64,000 nt of DNA from Candidatus Acidulodesulfobacterium acidiphilum (GTDB lineage: Bacteria; SZUA-79; Acidulodesulfobacterales; Acidulodesulfobacteraceae), in NCBI GenBank assembly GCA_008534395.1, contig SHMQ01000002.1, forward strand, positions 1,557 to 65,556, read 5' to 3'. Position numbers and translations under genes: made by a program. The stretch's first letter is position 1. Each line of letters opens with the position of its first letter. The notes beneath the pieces are model-generated. The model saw only the letters and a program-made list of their open reading frames with translations, was not told where the DNA came from and did not search any database. This document shows positions 10,342 through 55,480 of the stretch, one piece after another.

Positions 10342-11976
10342 TTATGGATTATAGTTGTAATTTCCAGCAAGCCCATATTGCGATAGCGAACTTACCCACG
10401 CCTTATTTAGATTAGCGTAATATTTTAAATTAGCCTGCTGAATATGAAGCGTAGATTCATAGGTATCATACATTTTATCGATAGCGCTCTGCACGTGTTT
10501 GACCTGATTTACATAAATATTCCATATGCGCGTTTTTTTCTTTCTGTCTAAATTTTTTGCCGCCATAACGTTGATCTCTACCGCCTTTAATATATCGCTA
10601 AAAAGACTTCTCGCGTAACCCGCAGCCATTAAATCGGCTGCTGTTTCTACTATGGCAGGATCGTTATTGACATATGCAAGTTTAAGAACTAACAGCACAG
10701 GGACGGAAGATTGCGTTATGAGATTATCCATTTGCGATTGAGACAATGTTGCCACATAAGTTCCACAAAGTCCGCTGCCGACGTTTAAAAAATTAGACTC
10801 GCCGAAGTAACTTTGCATAATTTGATTTAAATAACTCTTATAATAAAACGCAAAACCCTGAAAACACATATTAGGCGTTACTTCTTCAAGACTGGATAGA
10901 CTTGTAGCATTTGTAACGGAACCGGACGGAGGAAAAGGAATTACCATAGAAGTTACATTTTTACTTCCGAACATCAACATGCCAAATAAACTCGTTAATT
11001 GATTTCCTGTCGGGTTAGTAGTAACGACCTCGGCGGGAGAAAACATTCTAACAACAGGTTCTCCTTTTTTAGCCGCAGACGCATAACCGACGACATCCCC
11101 TATAAACTGCCCCCTTAAAACTCCTATCAAATCATTTGCGCCGCCTGTACCCGGTTTTGTTCCGTCTATTAAACCGATATGCGCCTGCAACAAAGAATTT
11201 CTTAAGAGAGACCCCTCTTGAAATTGACTTGCGGCCGCCTTCTGTCCGCAACTCGAAAATCCTGAGTTTACTAGCGCCTGCGCTCCTGCTTCAGTCGAAG
11301 CGCAGTTCATAGCGCCGTTGACGGTATTTACAAAGTTTCCAACAGCGTTAGAAACATTGCCTAAAGTATTACTAACTTGGTCGGCGAAAGCGTTTGTAGC
11401 ACCCGCTACGCCTGTTTTACCTATCATATTTCCTAATTCCGCTCCGGCAAGGTTGCCCATCGCTTCGGCCGTTTGACAGGAATTAAAATTTAGCCCGTTA
11501 AGCTTATTGGCAATAGCTTCTATCTGATTCATAATGGTCTGGCACTGCTTGCATAGGACGCCTAAAACCATATTGAAAGCAAATACCAATACTTCACCCG
11601 ATTGGATGATAGACTGTAGGACTTGCATTAAATGAGAACCGAGCATTGCAAACGCTCCCCATTCGGCGCTTATACCTGAACATCCTATCGAGAAATTAGG
11701 CGGGGTTATGGTAAATAACTGCAAGCTCTGACCCGCAGTATTAAATCTTACGTTACTATAACCTAAAGCATAGATATTTTCGCCTTGCGTATGAAATACC
11801 CCTGCTCCACCGCTATTAGATACGGAATTGGCACCGTTAAGACCTGCGGAAACGAATGAATTTATCCCTGCATATGCCGGCTGAACATAATAACTAACGG
11901 TCGCAAGCGTAGGCGTCGCAATCAAGAAAAAAGATAAGAGCAAAGACGCTATCTTAAATTTTAAATTTTTATACAT
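10342..11976 (-). CDS. traH: F-type conjugation protein TraH
   Basis: Signal peptide. PPNFSIGCSGISAEWGAFAML matches the TraH GC(G/S)GI..G.F motif. Start moved to the ATG at 11976, which has a GGAGGG SD. Confidence 0.75.
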   Translation of the reverse strand: MYKNLKFKIASLLLSFFLIATPTLATVSYYVQPAYAGINSFVSAGLNGANSVSNSGGAGVFHTQGENIYALGYSNVRFNTAGQSLQLFTITPPNFSIGCSGISAEWGAFAMLGSHLMQVLQSIIQSGEVLVFAFNMVLGVLCKQCQTIMNQIEAIANKLNGLNFNSCQTAEAMGNLAGAELGNMIGKTGVAGATNAFADQVSNTLGNVSNAVGNFVNTVNGAMNCASTEAGAQALVNSGFSSCGQKAAASQFQEGSLLRNSLLQAHIGLIDGTKPGTGGANDLIGVLRGQFIGDVVGYASAAKKGEPVVRMFSPAEVVTTNPTGNQLTSLFGMLMFGSKNVTSMVIPFPPSGSVTNATSLSSLEEVTPNMCFQGFAFYYKSYLNQIMQSYFGESNFLNVGSGLCGTYVATLSQSQMDNLITQSSVPVLLVLKLAYVNNDPAIVETAADLMAAGYARSLFSDILKAVEINVMAAKNLDRKKKTRIWNIYVNQVKHVQSAIDKMYDTYESTLHIQQANLKYYANLNKAWVSSLSQYGLAGNYNYNP

Positions 11977-11990
11977 AAACCCTCCTAAAA

Positions 11991-12641
11991 TCAAACAACT
12001 GCTATATCTTTCGTAATGTATATCCTATTCCTTCCATTTTCTTTTGCTAAATAGACGTTATTATCCGCTTCTTTTAGTATTTCCTCTTTTGATTTACCGC
12101 TGTCAAAAAAACCCACGCCCATTGAGCAGGTTATTTTCGGTAAATCCGGTATTCTTATCTTTTCTACGGCGTCTTTTAATTTCTTTGTTAAAAACCTTGC
12201 CTCCTGTAATGAGTTCCTTATATGATTAGACGACACCAAAACAAATTCTTCGCCACCATATCTGAAAAATACATCGCTGTTTTTCCTTATATTTTTATTT
12301 ATAGTCTGCGCAAATATTTTAAGCACTTTATCTCCCGCCTCATGTCCATATGTATCGTTAAATTTCTTGAAATGATCTATATCGAAAAAAACTACAAAAA
12401 AAGGCTCGTTGCTAACTTGAGATTCTTTATAAACTTCTTCTAAATATTTATCGAATGTTCTTCTGTTATTCGCTCCGGTCAAGTGGTCTTTTTCCGCCGT
12501 ATCTTTTAATCTTGCAATTTTTTTCTCAGTCTTACTGAATTCTTTTTTTATATTTATAGCGAAGTTATAAACATCATACGAGATAAAAAAATTAAAACCC
12601 GACAATAATACAAAAATTAAAGAATATACGCCGAAATCCAT
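11991..12641 (-). CDS. GGDEF diguanylate cyclase with N-terminal membrane anchor
   Basis: 216 aa. RYGGEEF active-site motif, FDIDHFKKFNDTYGH, GRNR. Confidence 0.85.
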   Translation of the reverse strand: MDFGVYSLIFVLLSGFNFFISYDVYNFAINIKKEFSKTEKKIARLKDTAEKDHLTGANNRRTFDKYLEEVYKESQVSNEPFFVVFFDIDHFKKFNDTYGHEAGDKVLKIFAQTINKNIRKNSDVFFRYGGEEFVLVSSNHIRNSLQEARFLTKKLKDAVEKIRIPDLPKITCSMGVGFFDSGKSKEEILKEADNNVYLAKENGRNRIYITKDIAVV

Positions 12642-12693
12642 GAATAAAAAAAAAATGAAAAAGCCAAAAGCAAAATACTTGAAAGTAACAGCA

Positions 12694-13281
12694 TCAGCGT
12701 ATCACCGACTTAGGAAAAAGCGGTATAGTATTATATTTAACAACGCTATCTTTAACTAATCCGAAGTATCTCGAATCTAATCCGTATTTATCCGGGGAAG
12801 CGGCAAAAAAATAACCGGCGGGTATTTTATAATTATGCCAGACCGGAAAACCTTTTATTTTCATATGAGGCATAGGTATTAAAACCGCATACTTTGGTAT
12901 CTCGGCTATAAATCTTCCGTTACAATAGTCTTTTCTGCCTACGGTATTTAATATCTGTCCATGCGTGCAAGCTACGTATTTAACCAGCAAATCCTTTTTA
13001 GGATAATGAAGTCCGTTGGCTTCATAATATTTTTTCCATAAAAAAAATCTTTTAGGCGCAGGAAAAACTACCGCCTTGCCGTCCTTTATTGCAGGACGCA
13101 AGGCGGTATATTTTTCGTTAATAAAAAAATAGGTATCCATGGACGGAGTGTTGGATATTCCGAAGGCGTAAAACTGGCTTATGATAAGATAGAAGAAAGC
13201 AAAAAATAGTATAAGCGCAGAAATACTATAAAACCTTTTGCTCTTTAAGCCTGCTTTCAATTTTTCCCGTAATGTCTTCAT
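12694..13281 (-). CDS. S26-family signal peptidase, conjugative TraF(P-type)-like
   Basis: 195 aa. N-terminal TM helix, SNTPSMDTYF serine box, SPDKYGLDSRYFGLV box. Confidence 0.65.
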   Translation of the reverse strand: MKTLREKLKAGLKSKRFYSISALILFFAFFYLIISQFYAFGISNTPSMDTYFFINEKYTALRPAIKDGKAVVFPAPKRFFLWKKYYEANGLHYPKKDLLVKYVACTHGQILNTVGRKDYCNGRFIAEIPKYAVLIPMPHMKIKGFPVWHNYKIPAGYFFAASPDKYGLDSRYFGLVKDSVVKYNTIPLFPKSVIR

Positions 13282-13636
13282 ATCCCTTGCCGCCTATTAC
13301 CGCTTGTTTTACTATTATGACGCCGTTAGACTCGTAAACTTTAGTATCCAAATCGATGTCCTTTACGAAATCAGTTATCTCTCCTTTTATCATTTTAGGA
13401 GTGGTAGATGTAGGATGTCTTAATATTTCTTTATGAATTTCCTGCCTTTTTAAATCCGTCAGTTTTTTTAAATTCAAGGCGTAAATTTTAGTTCCGCCCG
13501 CTCCCATATGTTTAATATATACAATATTAACAAATAATGTCAATACTAAAATTGCAAAAAAAGATATTGCATAAATCAAAACGCTTATCTTGCTAAAAGT
13601 TTTTTGTTTTTTTACCGATTTTTCCTGCTGTTCCAC
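13226..13636 (-). CDS. membrane-anchored hypothetical protein in the position of F trbI
   Basis: 136 aa with a single N-terminal TM helix. Immediately downstream of traC. Confidence 0.45.
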   Translation of the reverse strand: MEQQEKSVKKQKTFSKISVLIYAISFFAILVLTLFVNIVYIKHMGAGGTKIYALNLKKLTDLKRQEIHKEILRHPTSTTPKMIKGEITDFVKDIDLDTKVYESNGVIIVKQAVIGGKGYEDITGKIESRLKEQKVL

Positions 13637-13652
13637 AAATACCTCCTAAAAA

Positions 13653-16103
13653 TTAATTTTTATTTTTTTCTTTTGCATTGTCTTCGGCTATAACCGACTC
13701 TATCGCCTGAACCATGCTTAGCCCCTTATCGGTATATTTCTTAAGTCTTAACTTGTCTTCCATGAACGTAGTAAACAGATAATACATAAACCTATCAACC
13801 ATTATCCTTGCCACTACTTTTACGCCGAAAGGCGTATTAATAAAAACTTCGGAATGATAAGGCTTAAAATTAGAAACCGACCTTAAAACGTGATAATCCA
13901 TTTCGGAAAAACTTATTAATTGAGAAAGTTTTAAAGCGTTAATAGATTCTTCCGTCTGTTTTAAAAAGAATTTCCAAGAGCTTGAGTTTATAATAACCCT
14001 GCCGGCTCTTGATATAGATTTTTCGTTTACCGAATAAATATCGTCAAAGCCCTGAGTAGCTATAACTATAGAAGCTCCGTGCTTTCTGAAACGCCTGTAC
14101 GCCTGTTCTATAAAAATATCAATCTTATGAGACGTGCCTAAAAATTTATGCGCTTCGTCGATAAAGCATATTACTCTTGATTTAGAAATACCGCCGTGAT
14201 AAGTTTTATTCGTTAAATGAAATATCATAATCATAATAACGGCGTCTCTTAATTCCTGCATATTTTCGATAGTATCAAGTTCCATAACGACGTAAGGCTT
14301 AGTAAAATCTATAGAAGATTTTCCGGTAAAAAACTTGCCGTAAATTCCGGTAGCGGTATAAGGTTTAAGCTGCTGCCCAAAGTTCTTTAACTCCCTGTCT
14401 TCGCTGCCAAAAAACCATTCAGATATATGCGTTATTTCGAGTTTTTCTTTATACTCGTTCCAAAGCTCCGTCAATGCGCCGTCGATATATGACTTTATTA
14501 ATTTTTCCACTTGGTCGGAATAGTCTTTTGAGAGCGAAGCGCCTATAAAATAAATAAAATCCCTCAGATATTCCCAGTTCTCCTCAAAATCTTTCTGCGT
14601 TTTTATTTCGGAAAAGGGGTTTATCGATATAGGATTATTAAGGTTAAATTCTATCCACTGTCCGCCTATTGATTCGCAAAGCTTTTCGTAAGAACGCCCT
14701 ATATCGAACGTAAAAACCGTATCGCCCCTTGAAAGATACATAAGCGTTAAATAGTTTATAAATACGGATTTACCGGCGCCGGACGTAGCGACTATATATC
14801 CGTTGTAATTGTCAGGAGAATCGAATAAATCAAACTCCATTAACTGTCCCCTTCTCGATATTAAAGGGATCGTCGGCGTCTTAGTCCCCGCCCAGTCGGC
14901 TTCTGAAGGTATAAACTGCGCCGCTTCGTCGGTGAAAAGCGTTATGTAATTTTCCGTAATAGTATAATATTCGCTGTTCATTGCCATAGGCAATGACGAA
15001 AAGAAATTGACGGGGACTATTCTTGCGACGTGTCCGAGCTTAATTCTTTGCTGCGGCGCCCCGGAGTCCCAATAGGACTTTACCGTATCTACGCTTCTTT
15101 TTACCTCTTTTTCGTTTTTTCCCGAAACAAGCACGTTCAGTGAAAACTGAACGAGTTTTTGTTTCTCTTCTATTTTCTTTACAGTATGTAAAGCATCCGC
15201 TTTCTTCTTATTATGTCTTGGAAATAAATTTGCAGGCATATCCTGAGCCATTGTAGCAGACTGCCTGCCTTTAATACCCGCCGCTTTTTTATTTGAAATC
15301 ATGGCAAAAGAAGCAGTTATTATAAAAGGCGTATAAAATTGCTGCTTATCGACGTTCGGAGTCAAATAATCGCCCAACCTCGAAGAAAACATCCAGATGT
15401 TTGTTTCGTTAGGCAGATGCACCGGTTCTAAAGAAGCCCAGTAAACGCCGTCCGATATAACGTATTTTTTATTTCTCGTATCTATTAAAGTATCGGGGGC
15501 AAGCATTTGCCTTGCAAGAGGCACTCTGTCGTCGTATTCCGGTATATCCCTGAAGTCGTGGTTCATGTTCAAAATTTCATAAACTAAAGCTTGAAATTCG
15601 GAAGGTTTTACGTTTCTCGGATAATAGCCTTTAGTACTTAAAATATTTTCTATGGATTCGGTAATCATACTAAGCCTGTCGAGGCTTTTTTCCATAGTAA
15701 TAGAAATAAAAAGCCTGTGGTTTTTAAGCTTCGTTTCCATAAGATTGTTGATTTTATCCTTCGTCTTATTATCCAAAAAATCGACGTAGTTTTTTATAAG
15801 AGCGCCGTATAAAGGTTCTTCTTTTGCCCTTTCTTTTTGCGAGGCGAATATATCAAGTTCGTTTGTAATATTAGGGGAGCCGTATAACATAAACTGTATT
15901 ATGGCACCGGGGACGAGCATATCTAAAATGGATTCAAAAGCGGTAGTATCCGCCGCTACTATAGAGGGGGATAATTCAAGTATGCTTCCCGCTATTCCGT
16001 CATTATGAATATAAATACGCTCGTCTTCTTTATACCATGAATACGGCAATACTTCGGAAATATGCGTATATTTTGAAGCTGTATCTTTTAGCAACGGCTG
16101 CAT
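13653..16103 (-). CDS. traC: F-type T4SS ATPase TraC (VirB4 family)
   Basis: 816 aa. Walker A ATSGAGKS. Walker B-like VICFIDEAH. Size and position match F TraC. Confidence 0.9.
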   Translation of the reverse strand: MQPLLKDTASKYTHISEVLPYSWYKEDERIYIHNDGIAGSILELSPSIVAADTTAFESILDMLVPGAIIQFMLYGSPNITNELDIFASQKERAKEEPLYGALIKNYVDFLDNKTKDKINNLMETKLKNHRLFISITMEKSLDRLSMITESIENILSTKGYYPRNVKPSEFQALVYEILNMNHDFRDIPEYDDRVPLARQMLAPDTLIDTRNKKYVISDGVYWASLEPVHLPNETNIWMFSSRLGDYLTPNVDKQQFYTPFIITASFAMISNKKAAGIKGRQSATMAQDMPANLFPRHNKKKADALHTVKKIEEKQKLVQFSLNVLVSGKNEKEVKRSVDTVKSYWDSGAPQQRIKLGHVARIVPVNFFSSLPMAMNSEYYTITENYITLFTDEAAQFIPSEADWAGTKTPTIPLISRRGQLMEFDLFDSPDNYNGYIVATSGAGKSVFINYLTLMYLSRGDTVFTFDIGRSYEKLCESIGGQWIEFNLNNPISINPFSEIKTQKDFEENWEYLRDFIYFIGASLSKDYSDQVEKLIKSYIDGALTELWNEYKEKLEITHISEWFFGSEDRELKNFGQQLKPYTATGIYGKFFTGKSSIDFTKPYVVMELDTIENMQELRDAVIMIMIFHLTNKTYHGGISKSRVICFIDEAHKFLGTSHKIDIFIEQAYRRFRKHGASIVIATQGFDDIYSVNEKSISRAGRVIINSSSWKFFLKQTEESINALKLSQLISFSEMDYHVLRSVSNFKPYHSEVFINTPFGVKVVARIMVDRFMYYLFTTFMEDKLRLKKYTDKGLSMVQAIESVIAEDNAKEKNKN

Positions 16104-16117
16104 TGTTTTTTCTCCTG

Positions 16118-16669
16118 TTAGCGTCTGATTCTGAACATATTTAACTTGTCGTTTTTATATTTTTTAAACAAATAATTTCCGTAAAGCCATCTGCCCGAAC
16201 GAACGACTACGAATATATCCTGTCCGCTATGAAACGTTTTTTTAGAGGAATACGGAAGTATCCATATCTTTTTAATTACCGCAGGAATATATAAAGGCGG
16301 AGTGCTTGTTTTAAGCATATATTTTAGAAGATACTGCGATACTGATATAGATTTCTTAAAATTATATTTACCCGCCTTAACGGTTTTAACGCCGCTATTT
16401 CCCATTTCTTCGCAGGCTTTCGTATGTCTTAAGGATACGGGGCAATTAACTTTTGCCTTTTTTTGTTTTTCTAATTTAGCGTATAGAGCGGGATGTAGAG
16501 ACGCCTTGTAATTAGTTACCAAAGACGAACAGTTGCCCATATCGGATTTTGCCTCAGGACAAGAATAATTACTTGAATACGGAAGCATAGCGCAACCGGA
16601 AAAAGCAAGCATCACAAAACCTACGCCTGCTAATATTCCTGCTATTTTAAATTTTTTATTTTTAAGCAT
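16118..16669 (-). CDS. traV: T4SS lipoprotein TraV
   Basis: 183 aa. Lipobox LAFSGC, followed by conserved Cys spacing (YSCPEAKSDMGNCSS). Confidence 0.65.
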   Translation of the reverse strand: MLKNKKFKIAGILAGVGFVMLAFSGCAMLPYSSNYSCPEAKSDMGNCSSLVTNYKASLHPALYAKLEKQKKAKVNCPVSLRHTKACEEMGNSGVKTVKAGKYNFKKSISVSQYLLKYMLKTSTPPLYIPAVIKKIWILPYSSKKTFHSGQDIFVVVRSGRWLYGNYLFKKYKNDKLNMFRIRR

Positions 16670-16749
16670 TTTATTGACACCCCGCTTTAATTAATTTTTT
16701 CTTTTTAATTTTAACCGTCTTGATTTGTTTTTCTTTTTCTTTATCCATA

Positions 16750-17556
16750 TTATTTAAAATTTTTAAAGATATTGCTCTGAATTTTCTTGACGTTTACGGT
16801 TTTAATACCTAAAAGGCTGTAAATTTTACCTATATTAAGCCCTAAAACCGCCTGATTTTTTATTATGAAATACGGCACTCCGAAAATAGAGAATTTTTGC
16901 GCCAAAGCGGTATCATATTCAAGCCTTTTCATCGCATAGGTAGACTGCTTGAATTTAGGCGGTATATTGCCAGACTTGGTTAAATAAACTTGTTTTACCA
17001 TTATCTTGTTTAATAAGGCCACTCTTTGTTTATTATTTAAATGCTGCATTTTAGTAAAATAATAGAGTTCCATTTCTGTAGAATGCGGATGTATGGACGG
17101 CTGCGGTATTAAAAATAAATATCTCGTCATTTTATTTCTTAATCTTTTCGACTCTGTGGTAAGTCTTTCAAACGCCCTGCAATAAGGACAGTCTATATTT
17201 GCAAATTCTATTACTTTAACCGGACCGTGTCCTATCTTAATGGCTTTTGCCAAATCAACGTATTTTGCAATCTTTTCCGCTTTAGACGCCTGAATGCCCG
17301 CCATAGATTCGTTAGTTAAATTCTTGCCGGTATTAGTCCAAATCTGACCGAATACTAAGAGTTTTTTAGACGGATAGACGTAAACTATCTGTCCGTTAGG
17401 CATTAAAGCCCCGTAAAGTCCTTGAATAGGCGTAGTTAAAACTTTAGAAATTTTGGTATGCGGTAGTATTGCTTGAATAGTATTTAAAGATATAGCATAA
17501 ACATTAACCGTTAAAGAAAATACCGCCATTAAGGTTAAAATAAATAATTTTTTCAT
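16750..17556 (-). CDS. DsbC/TrbB-like periplasmic thiol:disulfide isomerase
   Basis: 268 aa. Signal peptide and CPYC redox motif. 4-bp overlap with the traB stop. Confidence 0.7.
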   Translation of the reverse strand: MKKLFILTLMAVFSLTVNVYAISLNTIQAILPHTKISKVLTTPIQGLYGALMPNGQIVYVYPSKKLLVFGQIWTNTGKNLTNESMAGIQASKAEKIAKYVDLAKAIKIGHGPVKVIEFANIDCPYCRAFERLTTESKRLRNKMTRYLFLIPQPSIHPHSTEMELYYFTKMQHLNNKQRVALLNKIMVKQVYLTKSGNIPPKFKQSTYAMKRLEYDTALAQKFSIFGVPYFIIKNQAVLGLNIGKIYSLLGIKTVNVKKIQSNIFKNFK

Positions 17557-18839
17557 TTTTTAGCCCCCTTTTTATTAGGTTTATTATTAGATTTATTGCT
17601 TTCGATATTATTTTTATAAGTCGCATAAAATCCATGCGTTAATACCAGCGTTAATTTTCTCCCTGCGCCTACGACTACCACAGGCATCATAGAATTCGCC
17701 ATTTTAGAATAAAATTTAGAGAGTTCTCCCGCAGCAGTACTTAAACCTTGACCTAATCCCGCTTCGCCTACGTTAGACGGATTAATAGTAGAAGTAGAAC
17801 CTAATGCCGAATAGCTCATAGTTTCCGACTGCATACTCACGACATTGGCAAACCCTTGCATAATTCCCGCCATAAACTCTCTTGCGAGTATTGCTCCCTG
17901 TTTCGTTACGACCTTGCCTCTTAATCCGACTTTGCCGTGTTCGCCTACGATATAGCCTTTAATAGGAGCGGATATATGTTTATTCCCGCCCTTGACTATA
18001 CAGGACAAATCGGTAGTCCTTAAATATACCCTTTCGCTTGAGAGCGACCCGTAACCCTCGGCTATAACGAAACACCCTTTCATAGATAAGCGGTATTGGT
18101 TAGGCAAAAACGATAAATTAGTAAGCCTTATAATCGTAGGATAAGGATTAGACTTGCCTTTCATACTCGCTGGGGCGTCTAAACCGTTAAGAAGGATCCC
18201 TTGAGTAAATGTTCCCGCCGGAACGTAAAAACCCCCGATACTTTTTTTTTTATTTTTTTTGGTATTCTTGGGCGAAGAATTTAAAATAGTATTAATAGGG
18301 TTTGTTATCGGCACTATTTGAACCTGCGGCTTTTTGCCGGGGACGGGCGGAGACGCAAATTTAGAATTATTATTGTTGTTGTTAAACGGAAGCGGCGGCG
18401 TAAAGACCCCTCTTGGCGGCTGATTAGGCGTTTTACTTACGCCTTTTGCGCCGTTCGTAGAATGAATTACCGCAACGTCATGAAGTTCTTTTTGATATAC
18501 TTTATTCTGTTTTTCTAAATTTTTTATTTCGGCGTTATTTTCCTGAAGCTGGTTTTCGCCTTTTGCCACCCAGCTTTGCTTAGATAATTTATTGACGTTT
18601 ATTATACTTGCTACCGGAGATTTTTTTGTCTTAAGCATAACAGGCCTGTTTCTCATAAATAAAAGAGCTATTACTATAACAACAACGGCTACGCCGCTAA
18701 ACATCGCTATTTTTACGAATAACTGCCACGACTTTTCGGTTTTAAACTTAGAGCGTAAATTAGCTATAAAAGCATTGCCTTTCTTTTCGCCGTCTTCGTC
18801 GTCGTTTAAGTCGTTATTTAAATTCAAATCGTCAGACAT
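17553..18839 (-). CDS. traB: T4SS TraB (VirB10-like)
   Basis: 428 aa. Acidic N-terminus, one TM helix, Pro/Asn-rich linker and a beta-rich C-terminal domain. Sits between traK and traV. Confidence 0.7.
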   Translation of the reverse strand: MSDDLNLNNDLNDDEDGEKKGNAFIANLRSKFKTEKSWQLFVKIAMFSGVAVVVIVIALLFMRNRPVMLKTKKSPVASIINVNKLSKQSWVAKGENQLQENNAEIKNLEKQNKVYQKELHDVAVIHSTNGAKGVSKTPNQPPRGVFTPPLPFNNNNNNSKFASPPVPGKKPQVQIVPITNPINTILNSSPKNTKKNKKKSIGGFYVPAGTFTQGILLNGLDAPASMKGKSNPYPTIIRLTNLSFLPNQYRLSMKGCFVIAEGYGSLSSERVYLRTTDLSCIVKGGNKHISAPIKGYIVGEHGKVGLRGKVVTKQGAILAREFMAGIMQGFANVVSMQSETMSYSALGSTSTINPSNVGEAGLGQGLSTAAGELSKFYSKMANSMMPVVVVGAGRKLTLVLTHGFYATYKNNIESNKSNNKPNKKGAKK

Positions 18840-18842
18840 ATT

Positions 18843-19766
18843 TTATTCCCCCATGATTAAAAGTCTTGTGAATGTATTTTTAAACAGATGTTCGTTGGAT
18901 AAAGAAATAGCAAGGATATTGCTCTTTAGATAAAGAAACTCTTTATTGGATAAAGAAATTTCGTTATTAGAGAGATTTTTAATTAAATATTCGTAAACGC
19001 TAAATTTACCTTTATATTTCTTTATAAGTTTTATCGCTATTTGCGGATAATTGGATTTATAAACTATATCCGTTTTTTTAGGCATATACCCTTTAGGAAT
19101 CCGTTTTGCGTAAATATCCCTGAATACTTTTGCCACGTATTTAGAAAAACCGCCGCTTGAATGAAAAGAGCGACTTTTTTGCCCTAAAACGCTGTTTACG
19201 TAAATAGTCTGGGGCGGAATATTCTTAGGAATAAGGAGCAGCGATACTACGGAATTTCCCGATTTAAATAAAACCGAACTCGGTATTTTAGGATATACGA
19301 CTTTTTTAACCGCTCCGGATTCTATCATATAGGGAGAAAAAACGACTACGGCGTCTTTGCCGTTTAACGTTATGGAAACGTCGCCGGTCTTTGACGTTCT
19401 GGCATAATCTATATAATGATTAAAGCTGATTCTGTTAATAAAAGCCCTCGACAGATAAATCGTCTTGGTCTGACCGGATTTTACGCTGATATGGACCGCA
19501 TTTACCGTAGCCGGTAGATTTAATAACTTTTTATTTTCGACAGGCAACGGCGGAAGCGCAACATTAGTTTTCTTTTGAACGGCATTGTCCGTTTTTTTAG
19601 GACGGCTACGCCTGCCCTTTATGCCTCCGCTTTTTACTTTGGGGGGCGCGGGATACAAAGGACGAGCGTAACCGCTCGGAGGTGCTGCGAGAAAAAAAAC
19701 GGCTAAAGAAAATAAAAATAAATAATGCTTAATATGCTTTCTTTTGATATGAAATAGACTGGACAT
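18843..19766 (-). CDS. traK: T4SS TraK (VirB9-like secretin-like)
   Basis: 307 aa. Signal peptide and Pro-rich linker. Call rests mainly on position between traE and traB. Confidence 0.6.
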   Translation of the reverse strand: MSSLFHIKRKHIKHYLFLFSLAVFFLAAPPSGYARPLYPAPPKVKSGGIKGRRSRPKKTDNAVQKKTNVALPPLPVENKKLLNLPATVNAVHISVKSGQTKTIYLSRAFINRISFNHYIDYARTSKTGDVSITLNGKDAVVVFSPYMIESGAVKKVVYPKIPSSVLFKSGNSVVSLLLIPKNIPPQTIYVNSVLGQKSRSFHSSGGFSKYVAKVFRDIYAKRIPKGYMPKKTDIVYKSNYPQIAIKLIKKYKGKFSVYEYLIKNLSNNEISLSNKEFLYLKSNILAISLSNEHLFKNTFTRLLIMGE

Positions 19767-30633: not shown

Positions 30634-31023
30634 TTAGGTTCTGCTTATTTGCAAAACCGTCTTTTTCTCCCCGCAACCGAGCTTTATTTGCACGGAACAA
30701 GAATTAATATACCTTTCATCATCGTCGATGATTAAAAATCCTTTTAGAGCGTCTATAATAGGTTTAGGAAAATAATTATCGACATCTCTATGTTTTTTAT
30801 CCGCAAAGCAAACCGTGACAAAAATATCTACTTTGCTTCTGCCGAACGGAAAGCATTTTTGCTTAAAGCCTTTCGATAATAGAAACCACTGGACATCGTT
30901 TTTTAGACGCTTAACAATGGAACTCCTAAAATACGGATTCGAATTTGCGTAGAACTCGTTTAGAGATGGCGCCACGAAAGGCAAATCAATGACTATTTGA
31001 TTTTTTTGATTTTCGCTATACAT
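30634..31023 (-). CDS. rusA: RusA-family Holliday junction resolvase
   Basis: 129 aa. HRDVDNYFPKPIIDALKGFLIIDDDERY matches the RusA D.DN..K...D.L...DD signature. Confidence 0.75.
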   Translation of the reverse strand: MYSENQKNQIVIDLPFVAPSLNEFYANSNPYFRSSIVKRLKNDVQWFLLSKGFKQKCFPFGRSKVDIFVTVCFADKKHRDVDNYFPKPIIDALKGFLIIDDDERYINSCSVQIKLGCGEKKTVLQISRT

Positions 31024-31660
31024 TAATTTTTACCCCCACTATTTTATTTTTTGATTTTTTATCGACAAGCGACAGTTTCGGTTTGTACCCGTCGATTATT
31101 TTTATGATATCTTCCTGTTCTACAAACTGCTTTAGTTCGGCAACGTATATTTTTCCCTTGAAATCTTCCCATCTTTCGTTATTGATTTCTATTATTCCTG
31201 AAAAATAATTTGGAGCGTCGTAATTACCGTTAGATTCCGCAAACACCTTATAGCTTTCGATAAAATCCCTTTTTTTCCAGTGGGTTTCCGTTCTGTTACA
31301 CCCACACAATTCTACGTCATAATCTATAAGCGAAATCGCCTTTCTAATAGCCTTATCCTTGAAAGTAAAGCTTTCATATATGCCGCATACGTCTATTACG
31401 TTTAAAACGTAACTCCAAGCTAATTCCGCCATAACATGAATATCAGTCTTGTTTTTAACTTTTTTCAATATATCGGCGATAGTAGGCATATATGATATTT
31501 CCTGCGTGCAGGATTTTAAAGCGTGAAGGACATTATCGATAGGATATTCTTTAAGGGAACTGATATAAATCTCAAGAACGCCTTCGGATAAATTCCTGTT
31601 AAAGAGTTCGGCGCACACCATTAATGCGTTTTTAATCCTTAATTTTTCATCATTATTCAT
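31016..31660 (-). CDS. hypothetical protein of the replication module
   Basis: 214 aa. Translationally coupled (4-bp overlap) to the replisome organiser gene. Confidence 0.5.
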   Translation of the reverse strand: MNNDEKLRIKNALMVCAELFNRNLSEGVLEIYISSLKEYPIDNVLHALKSCTQEISYMPTIADILKKVKNKTDIHVMAELAWSYVLNVIDVCGIYESFTFKDKAIRKAISLIDYDVELCGCNRTETHWKKRDFIESYKVFAESNGNYDAPNYFSGIIEINNERWEDFKGKIYVAELKQFVEQEDIIKIIDGYKPKLSLVDKKSKNKIVGVKINV

Positions 31661-33201
31661 AATAACCCCGCTTTAATCTTTTCTTCGAGCCTTTTTGAAA
31701 TTTCGTTATTTTTTTCGGTTCTTATTTCATCCCAAGTTCTTTTCGAATAATTAATAGACGATTTTAAGGATTTATTATCCTGCGCCCTTGTAAGCCAGTT
31801 ATTTATAAAACGCATATAATCGCTCGCCGGTCGTTTTGAAGGATTGTTTAATAACCAAGACTCCATTTTTTTAATTTCTAAATAAATATCAAGATATGGA
31901 AATTTCGATTTTAAAATATTTAGGTAGTCCTCAGTTAAACCGGTAAAGCTTGCTATTTCAGAATCAAAAGAAATATTGTATTTTGTTGCTTTTTTAGTTT
32001 TAGCATTAGCTTTGGTTTTAGTTTTTTCGTTAAAAAGCCATTTCACGGCAAATCTCATAAAATTGCCTGCATTGTTTTTTTGTATATCCAATACTGTTTC
32101 CGGATTGCTCATAAGCCATAAAGACATTTCTTTAAACTTTAATTCTAAATCAACATCCGGATATGCTGATTGTAAAATTTTTATGAGTGCTTCGGGGATT
32201 TCCATTTTATTATTTTCAGGATTGAAAGATATTATATTTTCCGGTATTACAACGCAACGGCGTTTTTCGTCGTTGCGTAAATCTTCTTCTTCTGTATTTT
32301 CTTTTTCTAAATCTATATCTTTATTCTTATTCTTATTCTTATAGGCGTTACGTAACGTTACAGAGACATTACTTGTAACGTTACAGCAATTATCCTTACT
32401 CTCACTTGCATTTGCATTGTCCCTTGGGACAAAATTTGGGACAGTTTTTGGGGTAATTTTTGTCCCGTCGTGGGACAACATAGGGACAACATAGGGACAA
32501 TCTTGGGACAGATATGGGACAGTTGTGGGACAGATATGGGACAGTTGCGTCTCGCCGGTTTTATTATCAGAATCATATTCGCTATCTTCTTGCTTGTCGA
32601 TATTAGAATTATTTTGGAATATTTCATTATCGTATTGATCAGGCATATTATTATTTTCTTTTAATAAATTTTCAATTTTCTTAATAATTCTCGACACTGT
32701 ATTTTTTGACATATTAAATTTTTTTCCAATATCCCTAAGTGTATATCCCTTTTTATATAATTCATAAATTTCGGATTCTGCATGTTTTGAACTTAACGAT
32801 AAAAGTTTTTGTTTTTCTCTATAATTTTCAACTCTTTGCCTATTAAGTTCTTTCACTCTTTCCATACCGTCAATATTTTGATATTTACTCCAGTTTTTCA
32901 AACAATAAATTTTCTGCTCATCCTTATTTAATAATTCTATTATTTCGTATTGAACAAGCACCGATAAGGCTAATCTTACTGAATTTAGCGGTCTGTCAAA
33001 TATAGTGGACAACATTTCATCTGTATAGGGAATTTTATTTGAAAAAAGCAATTCGCCTGAATTATTGCTTTTTCCGGCGAGAACAAATATTTTAAATAAT
33101 ACAACTAAAATAGTATCTCGCTCCGGCATTCCATCTATTAATTTTATTTTTTCGTCGTCAAAAATATTAGTAGATATTTTTATCCATTTAATCATAGACA
33201 T
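31657..33201 (-). CDS. phage-type replisome organiser / replication initiator with internal HTH
   Basis: 514 aa. N-terminus MIKWIKISTNIFDDEKIKLIDGMPERDTILVVLFKIFVLAGK is typical of the phage replisome organiser N-terminal domain. HTH YTLRDIGKKFNMSKNTVSRIIKKI. Iteron array lies inside the ORF. Confidence 0.65.
   Translation of the reverse strand: MSMIKWIKISTNIFDDEKIKLIDGMPERDTILVVLFKIFVLAGKSNNSGELLFSNKIPYTDEMLSTIFDRPLNSVRLALSVLVQYEIIELLNKDEQKIYCLKNWSKYQNIDGMERVKELNRQRVENYREKQKLLSLSSKHAESEIYELYKKGYTLRDIGKKFNMSKNTVSRIIKKIENLLKENNNMPDQYDNEIFQNNSNIDKQEDSEYDSDNKTGETQLSHICPTTVPYLSQDCPYVVPMLSHDGTKITPKTVPNFVPRDNANASESKDNCCNVTSNVSVTLRNAYKNKNKNKDIDLEKENTEEEDLRNDEKRRCVVIPENIISFNPENNKMEIPEALIKILQSAYPDVDLELKFKEMSLWLMSNPETVLDIQKNNAGNFMRFAVKWLFNEKTKTKANAKTKKATKYNISFDSEIASFTGLTEDYLNILKSKFPYLDIYLEIKKMESWLLNNPSKRPASDYMRFINNWLTRAQDNKSLKSSINYSKRTWDEIRTEKNNEISKRLEEKIKAGLL
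32418..32543. repeat. iteron array (putative replication origin) inside the initiator gene
   Basis: GGGACA at 32426, 32438, 32472, 32483, 32494, 32505, 32516, 32527 and 32538; the last seven are exactly 11 bp apart. Inverted TGTCCC at 32418 and 32461. An AT-rich tract follows at about 32560-32690. Confidence 0.7.
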
Positions 33202-33216
33202 ATTAATACTCCTCGA

Positions 33217-33297
33217 TTTTATCTAAAACCAGCAAGAAGACCCCGTCTTTACAAGGCGAGGATAAATTGCAATCCCTTGCCGTATTTAATTAAAATT
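33217..33297 (-). mobile_element. solo right-end relic of an IscB element
   Basis: About 80 nt nearly identical to 58056..58135, which is the last ~16 codons of iscB copy 2 plus 32 nt downstream, including hairpin CCCGCC-TTGTAAA-GACGGGG. Confidence 0.7.
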
Positions 33298-41188: not shown

Positions 41189-42796
41189 CTATTTTCCTGC
41201 TTTAGAAAATATAGAACTTATCAAAGACTTGCCCTCTTTGCTTTCCGTCTTCGTTATCCTTATCTCTTCAGTTCCCCTTAAATTTTCTACCTTAAAAACT
41301 TTTTTCCAAAACTTATCGTAAACTTCCCCGTTTTTAAAATAATAATCCGGAAGCCATCGTTCGCTTTGCGGACAAACTATAGTAAAACCCTTTTTTTCAA
41401 TAAAAACGGTCGAGATTATTATATCAGCTTCGTTAATTTCCGCCGCAGCATTCCCTACGGATATATCTTTAATATTAACCCTGTCGTTTTTTGCCATTCT
41501 TTTGGCGACGTTTGCAAAATACGGGAATAAAGACTCAGTTTGATAATTTGACAAAAAAACCATATTAAATTTTTTCGATAATAATAAAGTTAAATAAATC
41601 AAAAATTCAAGCGTAGCGCCGGAAACGGTATTAATATCCTCTTTTTTCAGCGGCATAAAATCGGAAAGCATATATTGCGTTTTATCGACGAACATCTTCA
41701 TTTCAAAAGCGTTAAATACCGTTAATTCCGTTTTGTCCGCCGTGCGATTTTCTTCCTCTATTTTTTCTAATAGTTCCTCTAATCTGAATTTTTCAAGATA
41801 ATCGCTTACGTCTCCGTGTTCTTCTAACTCCTCGAATTTAACTACTTTAAAGCTTTTTGCGATTTTGCTTAACGCCGCCGTAAGCTTTTCCGTCCGTTTT
41901 CTTCCCGCCTCGTCGTTATCTTCGAATACCACGACGTTTTTACCTTTTAAATACATATTATAGGATTCTTCCCAGCTCTCGGCGCCGGTAGCGTTAGTCG
42001 TGAAAGCGGCGTTTTTATCCGGCCATACAGTTTTTAAATTATTGCAATCTTTTTCCCCTTCGCATATAAAAATGTTTTCCGCCAAAAGCACGTCTTTTAA
42101 GTTGTAAAGTATAAGTTTTGCGTTTCCTTTGCCGGTTAACCTTTTAGCGCCTTCGTAGTGGTAAAACAAGAACTTCTTAGATATCCTTTCTTCGCCTTTA
42201 AAACGCTCCCAGCGTTCTTTTTCGTATAATATTTTGCCGCTTTCGTCGTCGTAGATGTACGTGGCCGTTTTTTTATCTACCTCTTTATCTTTTACCTGCA
42301 CAGGTTTTTTAACCGGCTGCTTAACCGGTTTGTCCGCATTGCGAACGGGGACAGGGGGCGGCGGTTCTTCGATATTATTTATTTCGGGATTATAGTCTTC
42401 CGCTTCAGGATTTTTGAACTCCGGTTCTTTTTCGTTTTCGTTTTCCATAACATTTACCTCGTTATCCGCATTAAAAGCGGTTTTATTTTCTTTGTCCGCA
42501 AAACGGACTTGTCCGTCTTTGTTTTTAAAAGCGGATTTTTCCTTAAAATTATCGGGCGGATCTATTCCGTATCCTCTGGCTATTTCTACCGCTTCCGGAA
42601 ACTTAACCGACTCCATTCTTTCGATTAAGTGATAAATGTTGCCTTTTTCTCCGCAACCCCAGCAAAACCAGACTCCGTTATCCGGATTTACAGAAAAAGA
42701 AGGCGTTTTTTCCTCGTGAAACGGACATAAACCGAAATAATTGCGCCCCTGTTTCTTTAATTTTATATATCTTTCCGCAACGTCTATGTAGGACAT
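41189..42796 (-). CDS. DNA primase (CHC2 zinc finger plus Toprim)
   Basis: 535 aa. CPFHEEKTPSFSV....WFCWGCGEKGN zinc finger. Toprim motifs ICEGEKD and VFEDNDEAGRK. Confidence 0.85.
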   Translation of the reverse strand: MSYIDVAERYIKLKKQGRNYFGLCPFHEEKTPSFSVNPDNGVWFCWGCGEKGNIYHLIERMESVKFPEAVEIARGYGIDPPDNFKEKSAFKNKDGQVRFADKENKTAFNADNEVNVMENENEKEPEFKNPEAEDYNPEINNIEEPPPPVPVRNADKPVKQPVKKPVQVKDKEVDKKTATYIYDDESGKILYEKERWERFKGEERISKKFLFYHYEGAKRLTGKGNAKLILYNLKDVLLAENIFICEGEKDCNNLKTVWPDKNAAFTTNATGAESWEESYNMYLKGKNVVVFEDNDEAGRKRTEKLTAALSKIAKSFKVVKFEELEEHGDVSDYLEKFRLEELLEKIEEENRTADKTELTVFNAFEMKMFVDKTQYMLSDFMPLKKEDINTVSGATLEFLIYLTLLLSKKFNMVFLSNYQTESLFPYFANVAKRMAKNDRVNIKDISVGNAAAEINEADIIISTVFIEKKGFTIVCPQSERWLPDYYFKNGEVYDKFWKKVFKVENLRGTEEIRITKTESKEGKSLISSIFSKAGK

Positions 42797-54196: not shown

Positions 54197-55480
54197 CTAC
54201 CTATCAATAAATTGATAGGCTTCCTGCCTCATCGTATGGTTACTATATCCGATACTCTGAATACCCGTAAGAGCATACTCCAGAGGCGTTAATTCCGCCG
54301 TTCCCGGCGTATTTTTTAAGATTGTTAATCCTTCAAGGAAAAGGTTAATACTTGCATTTACATCTCTGTCGTGGACGGCTCCGCATTGCGGGCATATCCA
54401 GAACCTTTCGGATAACTTAAGGTCTTTATGGATATATCCGCAGTCCGGAGTAGAACAAGTTTTAGACGACGGATAAAACCTGTTAACCTTAAATACCTGT
54501 CTGCCGTACCAAGACGCTTTATATTCAAGCATATCGTTAAATTTACTCCACGATACGTCGGATATAGGCTTCGATAAATTACCGTTCTTAACCATTCCTT
54601 TGATATTTAAGTCCTCGAGAACGATAACTTGGCTATCGTTTACCGTTCTTGAAGACAATTTATGCAAAAAATCGTTGCGCTGATTAAATATATGTTCGTG
54701 CAATTTTGAAAGTTTATTTTTAAATTTAATATAATTCTTTGACGGAGTAGTCTTATCCTGTTTACTGCGTTTATGAACCTTTCTATCAAGTTGTCTTGAA
54801 AGCTTAATAAGGCGTTTTTGGGACTTAAGCAAATATTTCGGGTTAGGTATCTTAAAACTCTCTTTATTATCAAAGCTTGTGCCTGTAGTTATAATGGCAA
54901 AATCTTTTAAGCCTAAGTCTATGCCTGTTGATATACCTACCACTTTTTTAGGTATATACGGAGTAAAAGCAAACTTTTCTACCAGCATATTGACGTAATA
55001 CTTGCCGGACGTAGTTTTAGAAATACTAATAGACTTTACCGCTTCGTAAACTTTCCTATGAAATTTAACCTTTATAGCGGTTTTGAGTTTCGGTATATTG
55101 ATAAAACTGTCCTTTATCTCAAAGCTTTGCGGTATTACGATACTGCTATATACGCCTTTCTTTTTGAAATTGGGATAACCTGCCTGTTTCTTAAAGAATT
55201 TCTGAAAGGCATCGTCCAAATCCTTAAGGCTTGCTTGCAAGGATTGGGAGTTAGCTTCTTTAAGAAAAGAAAAGCCTTTTTTAAGCAAAGGCAATATTTT
55301 TTTAAATTCATAGTAGTTAAATTTAATATTATGAGTTTTATATAAATGCGTAGCTCTTTCAAGAAAGAAATTATATACGAACCGGTTATAGCTCATCTGC
55401 TCGTCGAGATAAGCTACCTGCTCGGCGTTAGGATATAACCGAAATCTATATACGTAAAATTTATTGTCTCTATCTTTCAT
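54197..55480 (-). CDS. tnpB: TnpB (IS200/IS605-family OrfB, RNA-guided nuclease)
   Basis: 427 aa. FRLYPNAEQ start. RuvC triad candidates GIDLGLKDF, VIVLEDLNIKGM, HDRDVNASINL. Zinc ribbon CSTPDCG...CPQCG. Confidence 0.85.
   Translation of the reverse strand: MKDRDNKFYVYRFRLYPNAEQVAYLDEQMSYNRFVYNFFLERATHLYKTHNIKFNYYEFKKILPLLKKGFSFLKEANSQSLQASLKDLDDAFQKFFKKQAGYPNFKKKGVYSSIVIPQSFEIKDSFINIPKLKTAIKVKFHRKVYEAVKSISISKTTSGKYYVNMLVEKFAFTPYIPKKVVGISTGIDLGLKDFAIITTGTSFDNKESFKIPNPKYLLKSQKRLIKLSRQLDRKVHKRSKQDKTTPSKNYIKFKNKLSKLHEHIFNQRNDFLHKLSSRTVNDSQVIVLEDLNIKGMVKNGNLSKPISDVSWSKFNDMLEYKASWYGRQVFKVNRFYPSSKTCSTPDCGYIHKDLKLSERFWICPQCGAVHDRDVNASINLFLEGLTILKNTPGTAELTPLEYALTGIQSIGYSNHTMRQEAYQFIDR

What the first reader, a model, noticed from the sequence alone, without database searches (positions are those of the whole stretch)
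32418..32690. Lambda-style origin: 11-bp-phased GGGACA iterons inside the initiator ORF
Nine direct and two inverted copies of GGGACA lie within 126 bp of the replisome organiser gene. Seven of them are spaced exactly 11 bp apart, which places them on one face of the helix. An AT-rich stretch lies on one side. In the protein, the iterons are read as a repetitive linker (CPTTVPYLSQ / CPYVVPMLSH / TPKTVPNFVP) between the N-terminal organiser domain plus HTH and the C-terminal region. This parallels phage lambda, where ori lies within gene O. The array also generates two spurious overlapping ORFs in other frames.
Basis: partly seen in the sequence, partly recalled or inferred. Interest (0 to 1): 0.65.

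Follow-up and report, generated by a model that had tools for sequence, protein, structure and literature searches.

The report
Composite replication origin inside initiator gene
The GGGACA repeats are real protein-binding sites kept by selection on the DNA, inside the replication-initiator gene of a conjugative element; origins inside initiator genes are well known, and the one new point is that this array and an extra DNA-binding domain were added beside the family's usual origin repeats.

Summary
Nine direct and two inverted GGGACA copies lie at 32418-32543, and seven are exactly 11 bp apart. They sit in a 514-aa Phage_rep_org_N (PF09681) gene, in a stretch predicted to be a disordered linker.

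Selection acts on the DNA. The hexamer is read in all three frames. It is invariant in six relatives of 46-87% identity, while the spacers drift. Two relatives have switched every copy from TGTCCC to TGTCTC.

The "origin inside the initiator gene" reading is supported in kind, but it is already known from lambda O, SPP1 oriL, Tuc2009 and r1t. That core is GTAACGTTAC x2 followed by an (AAGAAT)n AT-rich tract (32283-32386), then a covarying GC-rich hairpin (32252-32278). Streptococcus and Bacillus phage members carry nearly the same block.

The GGGACA array occurs only in the small clade that also has an inserted helix-turn-helix (aa 139-183). The hexamer type follows the HTH type, not the N-terminal domain, the C-terminal domain or the partner gene.

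Best reading: a composite origin (oriV) of an F-type conjugative element, in which the HTH reads the added array. This is a new variant of a known kind, and none of it has been tested at the bench.

The parts
31657..33201 (-). Initiator (replisome organiser) gene, 514 aa
   Evidence: ORF. PF09681 Phage_rep_org_N at aa 6-129, E 3.8e-43. phrog_4880 'replisome organizer', E 1e-41.
32815..33186 (-). N-terminal winged-helix domain (PF09681, aa 6-129). Inferred reader of the canonical GTAACGTTAC repeats.
   Evidence: Pfam hit and AF2 model. Fold matches to winged-HTH proteins and phage replisome organisers. Family members without the HTH carry GTAACGTTAC repeats directly after this domain.
32653..32787 (-). 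Inserted three-helix HTH (aa 139-183). Inferred reader of the GGGACA/TGTCCC hexamers.
   Evidence: HTH_38 and HTH_Tnp_4, E about 3e-6. AF2 helices 139-150, 155-162 and 166-183, pLDDT about 80. Absent from canonical members. The HTH type tracks the hexamer type.
32242..32652 (-). Linker-coding stretch (aa 184-320), predicted disordered. It contains every repeat element of the proposed origin.
   Evidence: pLDDT 25-33 over aa 184-320.
32556..32720 (.). AT-rich flank A, on the 5' side of the array in the sense of the gene
   Evidence: GC 0.20-0.24. The 60-bp windows starting at 32645 and 32711 are among the least stable in 30.5-34.5 kb. The depth of this dip varies among relatives.
32461..32543 (-). 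Hexamer sub-array 1: seven direct TGTCCC (sense strand) at exact 11-bp phase, plus one inverted copy (32461-32466)
   Evidence: Hexamer positions are 42/42 identical between window, L013 and L019, against 11-20 of 35 spacer positions (Fisher p < 1e-6). Four strain variants in runs X5 and X9 all fall outside the hexamers.
32418..32443 (-). Hexamer sub-array 2: two direct copies 12 bp apart, plus an overlapping inverted copy that forms the palindrome TGTCCCaaGGGACA
   Evidence: The same layout is present in all six relatives.
32346..32386 (.). Canonical family repeats: GTAACGTTAC at 32352 and 32375, a CGTTAC half-site at 32346, and one embedded hexamer GAGACA at 32363-32368
   Evidence: (D10, I14). 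The same motif, x2-4, follows the N-domain in Streptococcus phages SM1 and IPP44, Bacillus phage BC-1 and an IMG/VR contig. Its translation (NVT / VT[LVF]) appears in 84 of 120 homologues.
32283..32345 (.). AT/purine-rich tract B, (AAGAAT)n in the sense strand. Candidate DNA-unwinding element.
   Evidence: TRF TTATTC x3.7 at 32321-32342. A GC dip of 0.17-0.29 at the same relative position in all seven loci. The 60-bp window starting at 32283 is among the least stable. The same tract follows the repeats in canonical phage members, r1t and Tuc2009.
32252..32278 (.). GC-rich inverted repeat (11-bp stem, 5-nt A/T loop) beyond tract B
   Evidence: (I21). Across six loci, 88% of cells are paired and 5 of 11 pairs carry compensatory changes. 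Only 1 of 500 shuffles reaches this, and slid controls give 0-1.
31762..32229 (-). Two tandem C-terminal domains (aa 325-401 and 411-480), each ending in [FY]MRFxxxWL. Inferred helicase-loader docking region.
   Evidence: AF2 model. Internal duplication, 32% identity, E 2e-11. This region co-varies with the downstream partner gene.
31016..31660 (-). Conserved 214-aa partner gene, overlapping the initiator's stop codon. Possible helicase loader.
   Evidence: DUF6475 (below Pfam's cut-off), phrog_10105, and weakly phrog_2289 'helicase loader'. It follows the initiator in every locus whose contig extends past the gene. Its identity pattern follows the initiator's C-terminal domain.

Best explanation
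The GGGACA array is one part of a composite replication origin (oriV) that lies inside the initiator's own gene. The origin spans about 32240-32720 and coincides with the stretch that encodes the initiator's disordered linker.

In the sense of the gene the order is:
1. AT-rich flank A.
2. Seven 11-bp-phased TGTCCC hexamers capped by an inverted copy.
3. Two more hexamers that end in a palindrome.
4. The PF09681 family's canonical GTAACGTTAC repeats.
5. An (AAGAAT)n AT-rich tract.
6. A GC-rich hairpin.

What is shown:
- The hexamers and their register are held by selection on the DNA.
- The layout is conserved in relatives.
- The hexamer type switches in concert and follows the HTH type.
- The canonical repeats and the AT tract are shared with phage members that lack the HTH.

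What is inferred:
- The N-terminal winged helix binds the GTAACGTTAC repeats, as it presumably does in canonical members.
- The inserted HTH binds the hexamers, one protomer per helical turn along roughly one face of the DNA. This builds an oligomer that bends the DNA and helps melt an adjacent AT-rich tract, most likely tract B.
- The tandem C-terminal domains then recruit the 214-aa partner and a replicative helicase.
- The HTH-plus-array cassette would give this replicon its own specificity, and perhaps iteron-type copy control, on a conjugative element.
For: Initiator identity: PF09681, E 3.8e-43, plus an HTH, and replisome-organizer PHROGs.

The array is far beyond chance.

Selection on DNA rather than protein:
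- The 11-bp period puts the same hexamer in all three frames (CP / VP / xSx).
- In L012 and L009 every copy is TGTCTC, which gives CL / VS / xSx.
- Hexamer positions are 42/42 identical against 11-20 of 35 spacer positions.
- The four strain variants all lie outside the hexamers.

The same architecture is found in six relatives of 46-87% identity. Each locus has a single hexamer cluster, always in this gene.

The canonical GTAACGTTAC repeats plus AT tract are present here and in Streptococcus and Bacillus phage members that lack both the HTH and the hexamers.

L021 has the same N- and C-terminal domains but no HTH. It lacks the hexamer array and carries TGTCAATGACA x5 instead.

Module matrices show that the hexamer type follows the HTH grouping only. 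The N-domain, the C-domain and the partner gene group differently.

The linker is predicted disordered. The hairpin covaries.

Precedent:
- SPP1 oriL lies within gene 38, with iterons plus a DUE (PMC6316719, PMC5737612).
- The Tuc2009 and TP901-1 organisers bind direct repeats inside their own genes that serve as ori (PMC8965321). The Tuc2009 record says 'contains origin of replication'.
- Tuc2009 and r1t have 11-bp-period repeats plus an AGATAAGAAT-type tract inside the gene.
Against: - There is no experimental evidence of any kind for this element or its clade.
- No GC-skew inflection is seen at 32.4 kb. The skew simply follows the direction of transcription.
- Only assembled contigs of public runs were available, so a coverage peak could not be tested.
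- The link between HTH and hexamers rests on two HTH classes and one HTH-less relative. The HTH coding region is only 70-130 bp from the array, so plain physical linkage could explain part of the co-inheritance.
- It is not resolved which AT-rich flank melts.
N-domains only 33% identical keep similar repeats.
- Tuc2009 Rep and r1t ORF11 did not match PF09681 at E 0.001 or better, so the experimental precedent concerns the architecture, not this exact family.
Confidence: 0.72

Rival explanations
1. The hexamer array is a regulatory site, not a firing site. The initiator, through its HTH, binds it to repress its own gene or to pair two copies (handcuffing). This would set copy number and incompatibility, while initiation uses only the canonical GTAACGTTAC repeats and the AT tract. 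It overlaps the main explanation and differs only in what the array does.
For: Canonical family members have the GTAACGTTAC/AT-tract block alone, without any hexamer array. The array comes as an add-on together with the HTH. The element is a conjugative element, and relatives carry ParA/ParB, so it is plasmid-like, and iterons are known to control copy number in plasmids (established knowledge, e.g. PMC3401445 for chrII iterons). Inverted copies and a palindrome cap both sub-arrays.
Against: The array lies about 650 bp inside the coding region, far from any promoter of the gene. Extra iterons are needed for firing in Stx phages (PMC7466680), so added sites can be part of the origin proper. Nothing here separates the two roles.
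Confidence: 0.17
2. The array is a partition site (centromere) bound by a ParB-type or other centromere-binding protein of the element, and it only happens to lie inside the initiator gene.
For: Relatives L015, L016 and L009 encode ParA and ParB a few kb downstream. Arrays of short direct and inverted repeats are typical of some plasmid centromeres (own knowledge).
Against: The window has no homologue of the relatives' ParA or ParB in 64 kb, yet it keeps the array intact. The hexamer type follows the HTH of the initiator itself. The position inside the initiator linker is fixed in all seven loci.
Confidence: 0.05
3. The repeats serve the protein: a repetitive Cys/Pro/Val/Ser linker selected at the amino-acid level. 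Alternatively they are a functionless slippage-generated microsatellite.
For: The region is translated, and the Cys, Val and Ser columns are invariant in the protein alignment.
Against: The peptide repeat is exactly what one hexamer gives in three frames. The C-to-T switch changes P to L in one frame and P to S in another, and is silent in the third, in every copy at once. Spacers vary while the hexamers do not. The region is predicted disordered. Inverted copies at fixed places are not produced by slippage.
Confidence: 0.03

Closest known systems
In-gene origins of Gram-positive phage replisome organisers: SPP1 oriL in gene 38 (G38P), Tuc2009 rep2009, TP901-1 ORF13, r1t ORF11
   Same: The origin lies inside the organiser gene, between a DNA-binding N-terminal part and a C-terminal part. 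Short direct repeats are followed by an AT-rich tract that serves as the unwinding element. A loader gene lies directly downstream (PMC6316719, PMC5737612, PMC8965321). r1t and Tuc2009 have 11-bp-period repeats followed by AGATAAGAAT- or AGGAT-type tracts.
   Different: Tuc2009 Rep and r1t ORF11 did not match PF09681. None of these has the extra HTH or a second, separate hexamer array. They are phages, whereas this is a conjugative element.
Canonical PF09681 (Phage_rep_org_N) members, e.g. Streptococcus phage SM1 gp19, pneumococcal IPP44, Bacillus phage BC-1
   Same: The N-domain is 50-60% identical. GTAACGTTAC repeats plus an (AAGAAT)n-type tract lie right after it, nearly the same DNA as window 32283-32386.
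   Different: They are 265-285 aa long, have no HTH, have zero TGTCYC hexamers in the gene, and carry a single DnaB_2-type or other C-terminal domain. As far as I could find in the held literature, the GTAACGTTAC block has not been tested as an origin.
Phage lambda ori inside gene O (and Stx phages with six iterons)
   Same: Iterons and an AT-rich tract lie in the middle of the initiator gene and are translated as a linker. Extra iterons add residues to the protein (PMC7466680).
   Different: The proteins are unrelated: no Phage_rep_O hit. Lambda has a few longer iterons. Here there are 6-bp cores at an 11-bp period plus a second repeat class.
Iteron plasmids and Vibrio cholerae chrII (RctB)
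   Same: Arrays of short initiator-binding repeats occur on a plasmid-like replicon and can both fire and limit replication (PMC3401445).
   Different: The initiator family is different. In those systems the iterons are normally intergenic and spaced about two helical turns apart (own knowledge).

Membership tests
PF09681 phage replisome organiser family | N-terminal Phage_rep_org_N domain above Pfam's gathering score | tested here: met
   146.8 bits against a cut-off of 23.3, E 3.8e-43, aa 6-129 covering profile positions 1-121 of 121.
PF09681 phage replisome organiser family | A low-complexity linker after the N-domain that reflects DNA direct repeats. The family description, as I recall it (TIGR01714/Pfam, own knowledge), says these can act as an origin. 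| tested here: met
   GTAACGTTAC x2 plus (AAGAAT)n at 32283-32386, the same block as in SM1, IPP44, BC-1 and L001. The linker is predicted disordered.
PF09681 phage replisome organiser family | Replication-module context: a loader-type gene directly downstream | tested here: inconclusive
   A conserved 214-aa partner overlaps the stop codon. It hits DUF6475 below the cut-off and phrog_2289 'helicase loader' at only E 1.7e-6, with no PDB relative.
Iteron-type origin of replication (functional class) | Clustered repeats in helical phase, conserved as DNA | tested here: met
Iteron-type origin of replication (functional class) | An adjacent AT-rich unwinding element | tested here: met
   Both flanks are among the four least stable 60-bp windows of 4 kb. 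Tract B is conserved in all seven loci.
Iteron-type origin of replication (functional class) | The initiator binds the repeats, and the fragment supports replication | not testable with these tools
   Needs EMSA or footprinting and a replication assay. Coverage could not be used, because only contigs were available.
Lambda O / ori-lambda family | Initiator homologous to lambda O (Phage_rep_O) | tested here: not met
   No such Pfam hit at E 0.01 or better. The N-domain belongs to PF09681.
Plasmid partition centromere (parS-like) | A cognate ParA/ParB pair on the same element that co-varies with the repeats | tested here: not met
   tblastn found no homologue of the relatives' ParA or ParB in the 64-kb window. 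The hexamer type follows the initiator's HTH.

The most novel reading that the evidence does not exclude
The initiator has captured a transposase-type mini-HTH together with its own array of once-per-turn hexamer sites. This forms a portable 'HTH + iteron' cassette that sits beside the ancestral origin. Recombination exchanges the cassette independently of the N-terminal DNA-binding domain and of the C-terminal, loader-binding domain. That would re-key replicon specificity and incompatibility among competing conjugative elements: TGTCCC with an SKNT recognition helix, against TGTCTC with SKDT. The origin would then be read by two different DNA-binding domains of a single initiator.
Probability: 0.4. 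Interest if true: 0.55.

Novelty: new variant of a known kind. Interest (0 to 1): 0.35.

Why it matters
Origins embedded in initiator genes are textbook (lambda, SPP1) and turn up very often in this scan, so the basic finding is ordinary. Three things add something.

1. The locus gives a clean natural experiment on modularity. Three modules recombine independently: the N-domain, the HTH plus hexamer array, and the C-domain plus partner gene. This points to which protein part reads which DNA element and yields a simple testable prediction: swapping the HTH class should swap the preference between TGTCCC and TGTCTC.

2. The GTAACGTTAC/(AAGAAT)n block is conserved as DNA from Firmicutes phages to an uncultured mine-drainage conjugative element. 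That marks it as the likely core origin of the whole PF09681 family and would help annotate origins in many phages.

3. It identifies the probable oriV and incompatibility determinant of a conjugative element that carries a type IV-E CRISPR system. Such systems are thought to act in competition between plasmids.

Tried and rejected
- GC skew: no inflection at the array. The skew follows gene orientation, so it is uninformative.
- Coverage peak: the public runs that hold the element (mine drainage, tailings and sediment metagenomes) are kept only as contigs, so depth is flat per contig. The only use was for strain variants.
- megablast of 28-37 kb against phage records: no match.
- Widening the HTH-bearing clade: a search restricted to the HTH region and a search of all representatives found no further members beyond the same small clade. 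The genome and metagenome scans added only L018-L021.
- Sequence search of PDB: only marginal HTH hits, such as the Sleeping Beauty PAI subdomain at E 0.13, and nothing for the partner protein.
- Fold search against PDB: only weak winged-helix matches, E > 0.01. The C-terminal domain could not be tied to DnaB_2/DnaD by BLASTP.
- Second origin like SPP1 oriR: neither the hexamer cluster nor GTAACGTTAC occurs elsewhere in the window or in the relatives' loci.
- Partition-site idea: the window has no ParA or ParB.
- Protein-level repeat idea: rejected by the three-frame argument.
- Literature search for GTAACGTTAC: only unrelated oligonucleotides.
- The genome search and the fetch from genomes were shut, so the rest of the host assembly could not be examined.
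Full report
**1. Observation**

The + strand of 32418-32543 carries nine GGGACA copies and two inverted copies. The seven from 32472 to 32538 are exactly 11 bp apart. The other 63.9 kb hold only 12 copies, so 0.024 are expected in 126 bp (Poisson about 3e-26). This is the largest cluster of any hexamer in the window: 11 copies, against 4-6 in shuffles. TGGGACA-N4-6-TGGGACA occurs four times, against none in 100 shuffles.

The array lies in a 514-aa ORF on the minus strand (31657-33201) and is translated as SHICPTTVPYLSQDCPYVVPMLSHDGTKITPKTVPNFVPRD. Every descriptive statement of the finding is correct, except that AT-rich DNA lies on both sides, not one.

**2. The gene and its setting**

- The protein has a Phage_rep_org_N domain (PF09681, aa 6-129, E 3.8e-43), followed by a small helix-turn-helix (HTH_38 / HTH_Tnp_4, aa 144-182). 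It also matches replisome-organizer PHROGs.
- An AlphaFold model built from eight relatives shows five parts:
  - a winged-helix N-domain;
  - a long helix;
  - a confident three-helix HTH (aa 139-183);
  - a disordered stretch, aa 184-320 (pLDDT 25-33);
  - two tandem C-terminal domains.
- The two C-terminal domains are an internal duplication (32% identity, E 2e-11).
- The disordered stretch corresponds to window 32242-32652 and contains every repeat element described below.
- A 214-aa gene overlaps the stop codon and follows the initiator in every locus whose contig extends past the gene. RusA lies further on. Upstream are Mom-like and methylase genes and a divergent S24-peptidase repressor.
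- The window also carries F-type transfer genes: TraG_N, TraC, TraH, TrbI and TraK.
- Earlier notes of this scan report a type IV-E CRISPR locus at 23.6-29.9 kb.
- The host element is therefore a conjugative element with a phage-like early region, not evidently a phage. It occurs in mine-drainage, tailings and sediment metagenomes.

**3. Selection acts on the DNA**

- Six full-length relatives of 46-99% identity, plus L019/L020 from a metagenome scan, were fetched with their DNA.
- All carry the same layout at the same place in the gene:
  - four to seven direct hexamers in unbroken 11-bp phase, and up to eight if isolated copies one step (22 bp) away are counted;
  - one inverted copy;
  - a gap of about 23 bp;
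  - two or three direct copies 12 bp apart;
  - an overlapping inverted copy that forms a palindrome (TGTCCCaaGGGACA).
- Because 11 is not a multiple of 3, the same hexamer is read as C-P, V-P and x-S-x in turn.
- In L012 and L009 every copy is TGTCTC instead of TGTCCC. The peptide then becomes C-L, V-S and x-S-x. A protein-level repeat cannot explain this concerted change.
- Between window, L013 and L019 the hexamer positions are 42/42 identical, while only 11-20 of 35 spacer positions agree (Fisher p < 1e-6).
- Four strain variants seen in two other metagenomes all fall outside the hexamers.
- Each locus has a single such cluster, always inside this gene.

**4.

- Canonical PF09681 members without the HTH carry two to four copies of GTAACGTTAC (period 10-12) directly after the N-domain, followed by an AAGAATAAGAAT-type tract. 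The examples checked were Streptococcus phage SM1 gp19, pneumococcal phage IPP44, Bacillus phage BC-1 and an IMG/VR contig.
- They have no TGTCYC hexamers at all.
- The translation of this block (CNVTSNVTVTxxNA[TI]D...) is visible in 84 of 120 homologues.
- The window has the same block at 32283-32386: GTAACGTTAC at 32352 and 32375, a half-site at 32346, and (TTATTC)3.7 at 32321-32342. This is just outside the finding's coordinates.
- Beyond it lies a GC-rich inverted repeat (32252-32278). It is kept in six loci through compensatory changes: 5 of 11 pairs, 88% of cells paired, reached by only 1 of 500 shuffles.
- The hexamer array plus HTH is therefore an insertion between the N-domain and the ancestral origin block, found only in this small clade.
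- L021 (P0007) has the same N- and C-domains but no HTH. It lacks the hexamers and has TGTCAATGACA x5 in their place.

**5. Which domain reads which repeat (inference)**

Identity matrices by module show three independent groupings.

| Module | Grouping |
|---|---|
| N-domain | {window, P0002, P0003, P0006, P0007} vs {P0004, L019, P0005}, about 33% identity between groups |
| HTH | {window, P0002, P0003, P0004, L019} vs {P0005, P0006} |
| C-domain and 214-aa partner | co-vary with each other; L012 (P0005) is 83-86% identical to L015 and L016 |

- The hexamer type follows the HTH grouping only.
- The start of the recognition helix reads SKNT with TGTCCC (five loci) and SKDT with TGTCTC (two loci).
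- This points to the HTH as reader of the hexamers, the N-domain as reader of the GTAAC-type repeats, and the C-domains as the partner-binding part.
- The caveat is that there are only two HTH classes and the HTH coding region is 70-130 bp from the array, so physical linkage contributes to the pattern.
- The HTH belongs to a widespread mini-HTH family that often occurs as tandem arrays of up to 14 copies in one protein. That fits a module which reads one short site per copy.

**6. Mechanism proposed**

1. Initiator protomers bind the hexamers once per 11 bp, roughly along one face of the helix. The register drifts by about 17 degrees per step relative to 10.5 bp per turn.
2. They also bind the GTAACGTTAC repeats.
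3. The resulting oligomer distorts the DNA and opens an adjacent AT-rich tract. Tract B is the better candidate, because it is the one shared with canonical members and conserved in all seven loci.
4. The hairpin may form in the opened strand.
5. The C-terminal domains recruit the 214-aa partner and a replicative helicase. A DnaG-type primase is encoded at 41189-42796.

None of these steps has been shown experimentally.

**7. Comparison with what is known**

- The design is established in several systems:
  - lambda ori in gene O (PMC7466680);
  - SPP1 oriL in gene 38, with iterons and a DUE, reconstituted in vitro (PMC6316719, PMC5737612);
  - the Tuc2009 and TP901-1 organisers, which bind direct repeats inside their own genes that act as ori (PMC8965321; the record annotation is).
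- r1t and Tuc2009 even show 11-bp-period repeats followed by AGATAAGAAT-type tracts, although their N-domains are not PF09681.
- This scan already holds hundreds of similar notes.
- Membership in PF09681 is met. Membership in the lambda O family is not.
- What is new is the second repeat class coupled to an inserted HTH, its concerted specificity switch, and the setting on a conjugative element.

**8. Rivals**

- The array might act in copy control or autoregulation rather than firing. This cannot be excluded, and it overlaps the main reading.
- It might be a centromere. This is unlikely, because the window has no ParA or ParB.
- It might be a protein-level or junk repeat. This is rejected.

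**9. Verdict**

This is a real feature, correctly described and correctly classed in kind. It is an ordinary design with a modestly new twist. Interest is 0.35, and the novelty class is a new variant of a known kind.

Noticed in passing
window 32252-32278: A GC-rich inverted repeat (11-bp stem, 5-nt loop) lies inside the initiator gene, just beyond the (AAGAAT)n tract. Six loci keep it through compensatory changes (5 of 11 pairs). It could be a hairpin in the opened origin strand, an RNA structure, or a dyad binding site.
   Followed up: partly
window 33223-33290; L016 2678-3232; L017 197-751: In runs X5 and X9 the 66 bases just upstream of the initiator gene are replaced by 534 other letters. 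Relatives L016 and L017 have at that place a 184-aa ORF that combines a Phage_rep_org_N fragment with an HNH nuclease. This may be a homing-endonuclease-type insertion at the 5' end of the gene.
   Followed up: no
P0127 (273 aa), relative of L019: This is a truncated variant of the L019-type initiator. The reading frame is lost inside the hexamer array (…CPTSVPFWDSKCPNNCPKCCPAGQ…), which leaves only the N-domain plus HTH. An 11-bp copy-number change in the array, or an assembly error, would do this. Only 33-bp steps keep the frame.
   Followed up: no
L019 1737-2030: In L019 and L020 the block 'two hexamers + palindrome + GTAAT-type repeat' is duplicated, so that it flanks the phased array on both sides.
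   Followed up: no
P0122, P0123, P0134: The inserted HTH belongs to a mini-HTH family (consensus about YxxYxxGxSLxEIGxxFxVSxxTVxRxxK) that often forms proteins made of 4-14 tandem HTH copies. Their DNA targets might be phased repeat arrays.
   Followed up: no
P0173, P0228: Two unrelated predicted proteins are built from 11-aa repeats (VCPAFVPRLSR; CPVGVPWVSHG). These are what a TGTCCC word at an 11-bp period gives in three frames. They are probably translated DNA satellites and have no evident link to this locus.
   Followed up: no
L023 1898-1993; L025; L024 1930-2015; L001 3401-3488: GTAACGTTAC x2-4 followed by an AAGAATAAGAAT-type tract is conserved almost base for base inside the replisome-organiser genes of Streptococcus phages SM1 and IPP44, Bacillus phage BC-1 and an IMG/VR contig. 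It is probably the untested core origin of the PF09681 family.
   Followed up: partly
window 7250-19766; 54197-55480; 58088-59470; 2008-3249; 56067-57152: The window carries F-type conjugation genes (TraG_N, TraC, TraH, TrbI, TraK_C), a TnpB (OrfB_IS605/Cas12f-like TNB), an RRXRR-HNH (IscB-like) protein and a second HNH protein, and an RtcB ligase.
   Followed up: no
window 31016-31660 and initiator aa 325-514: The 214-aa downstream protein and the initiator's C-terminal tandem domains show the same identity pattern across loci (L012 is 83-86% identical to L015 and L016). This pattern differs from those of the N-domain and the HTH, which suggests an interacting pair.
   Followed up: partly
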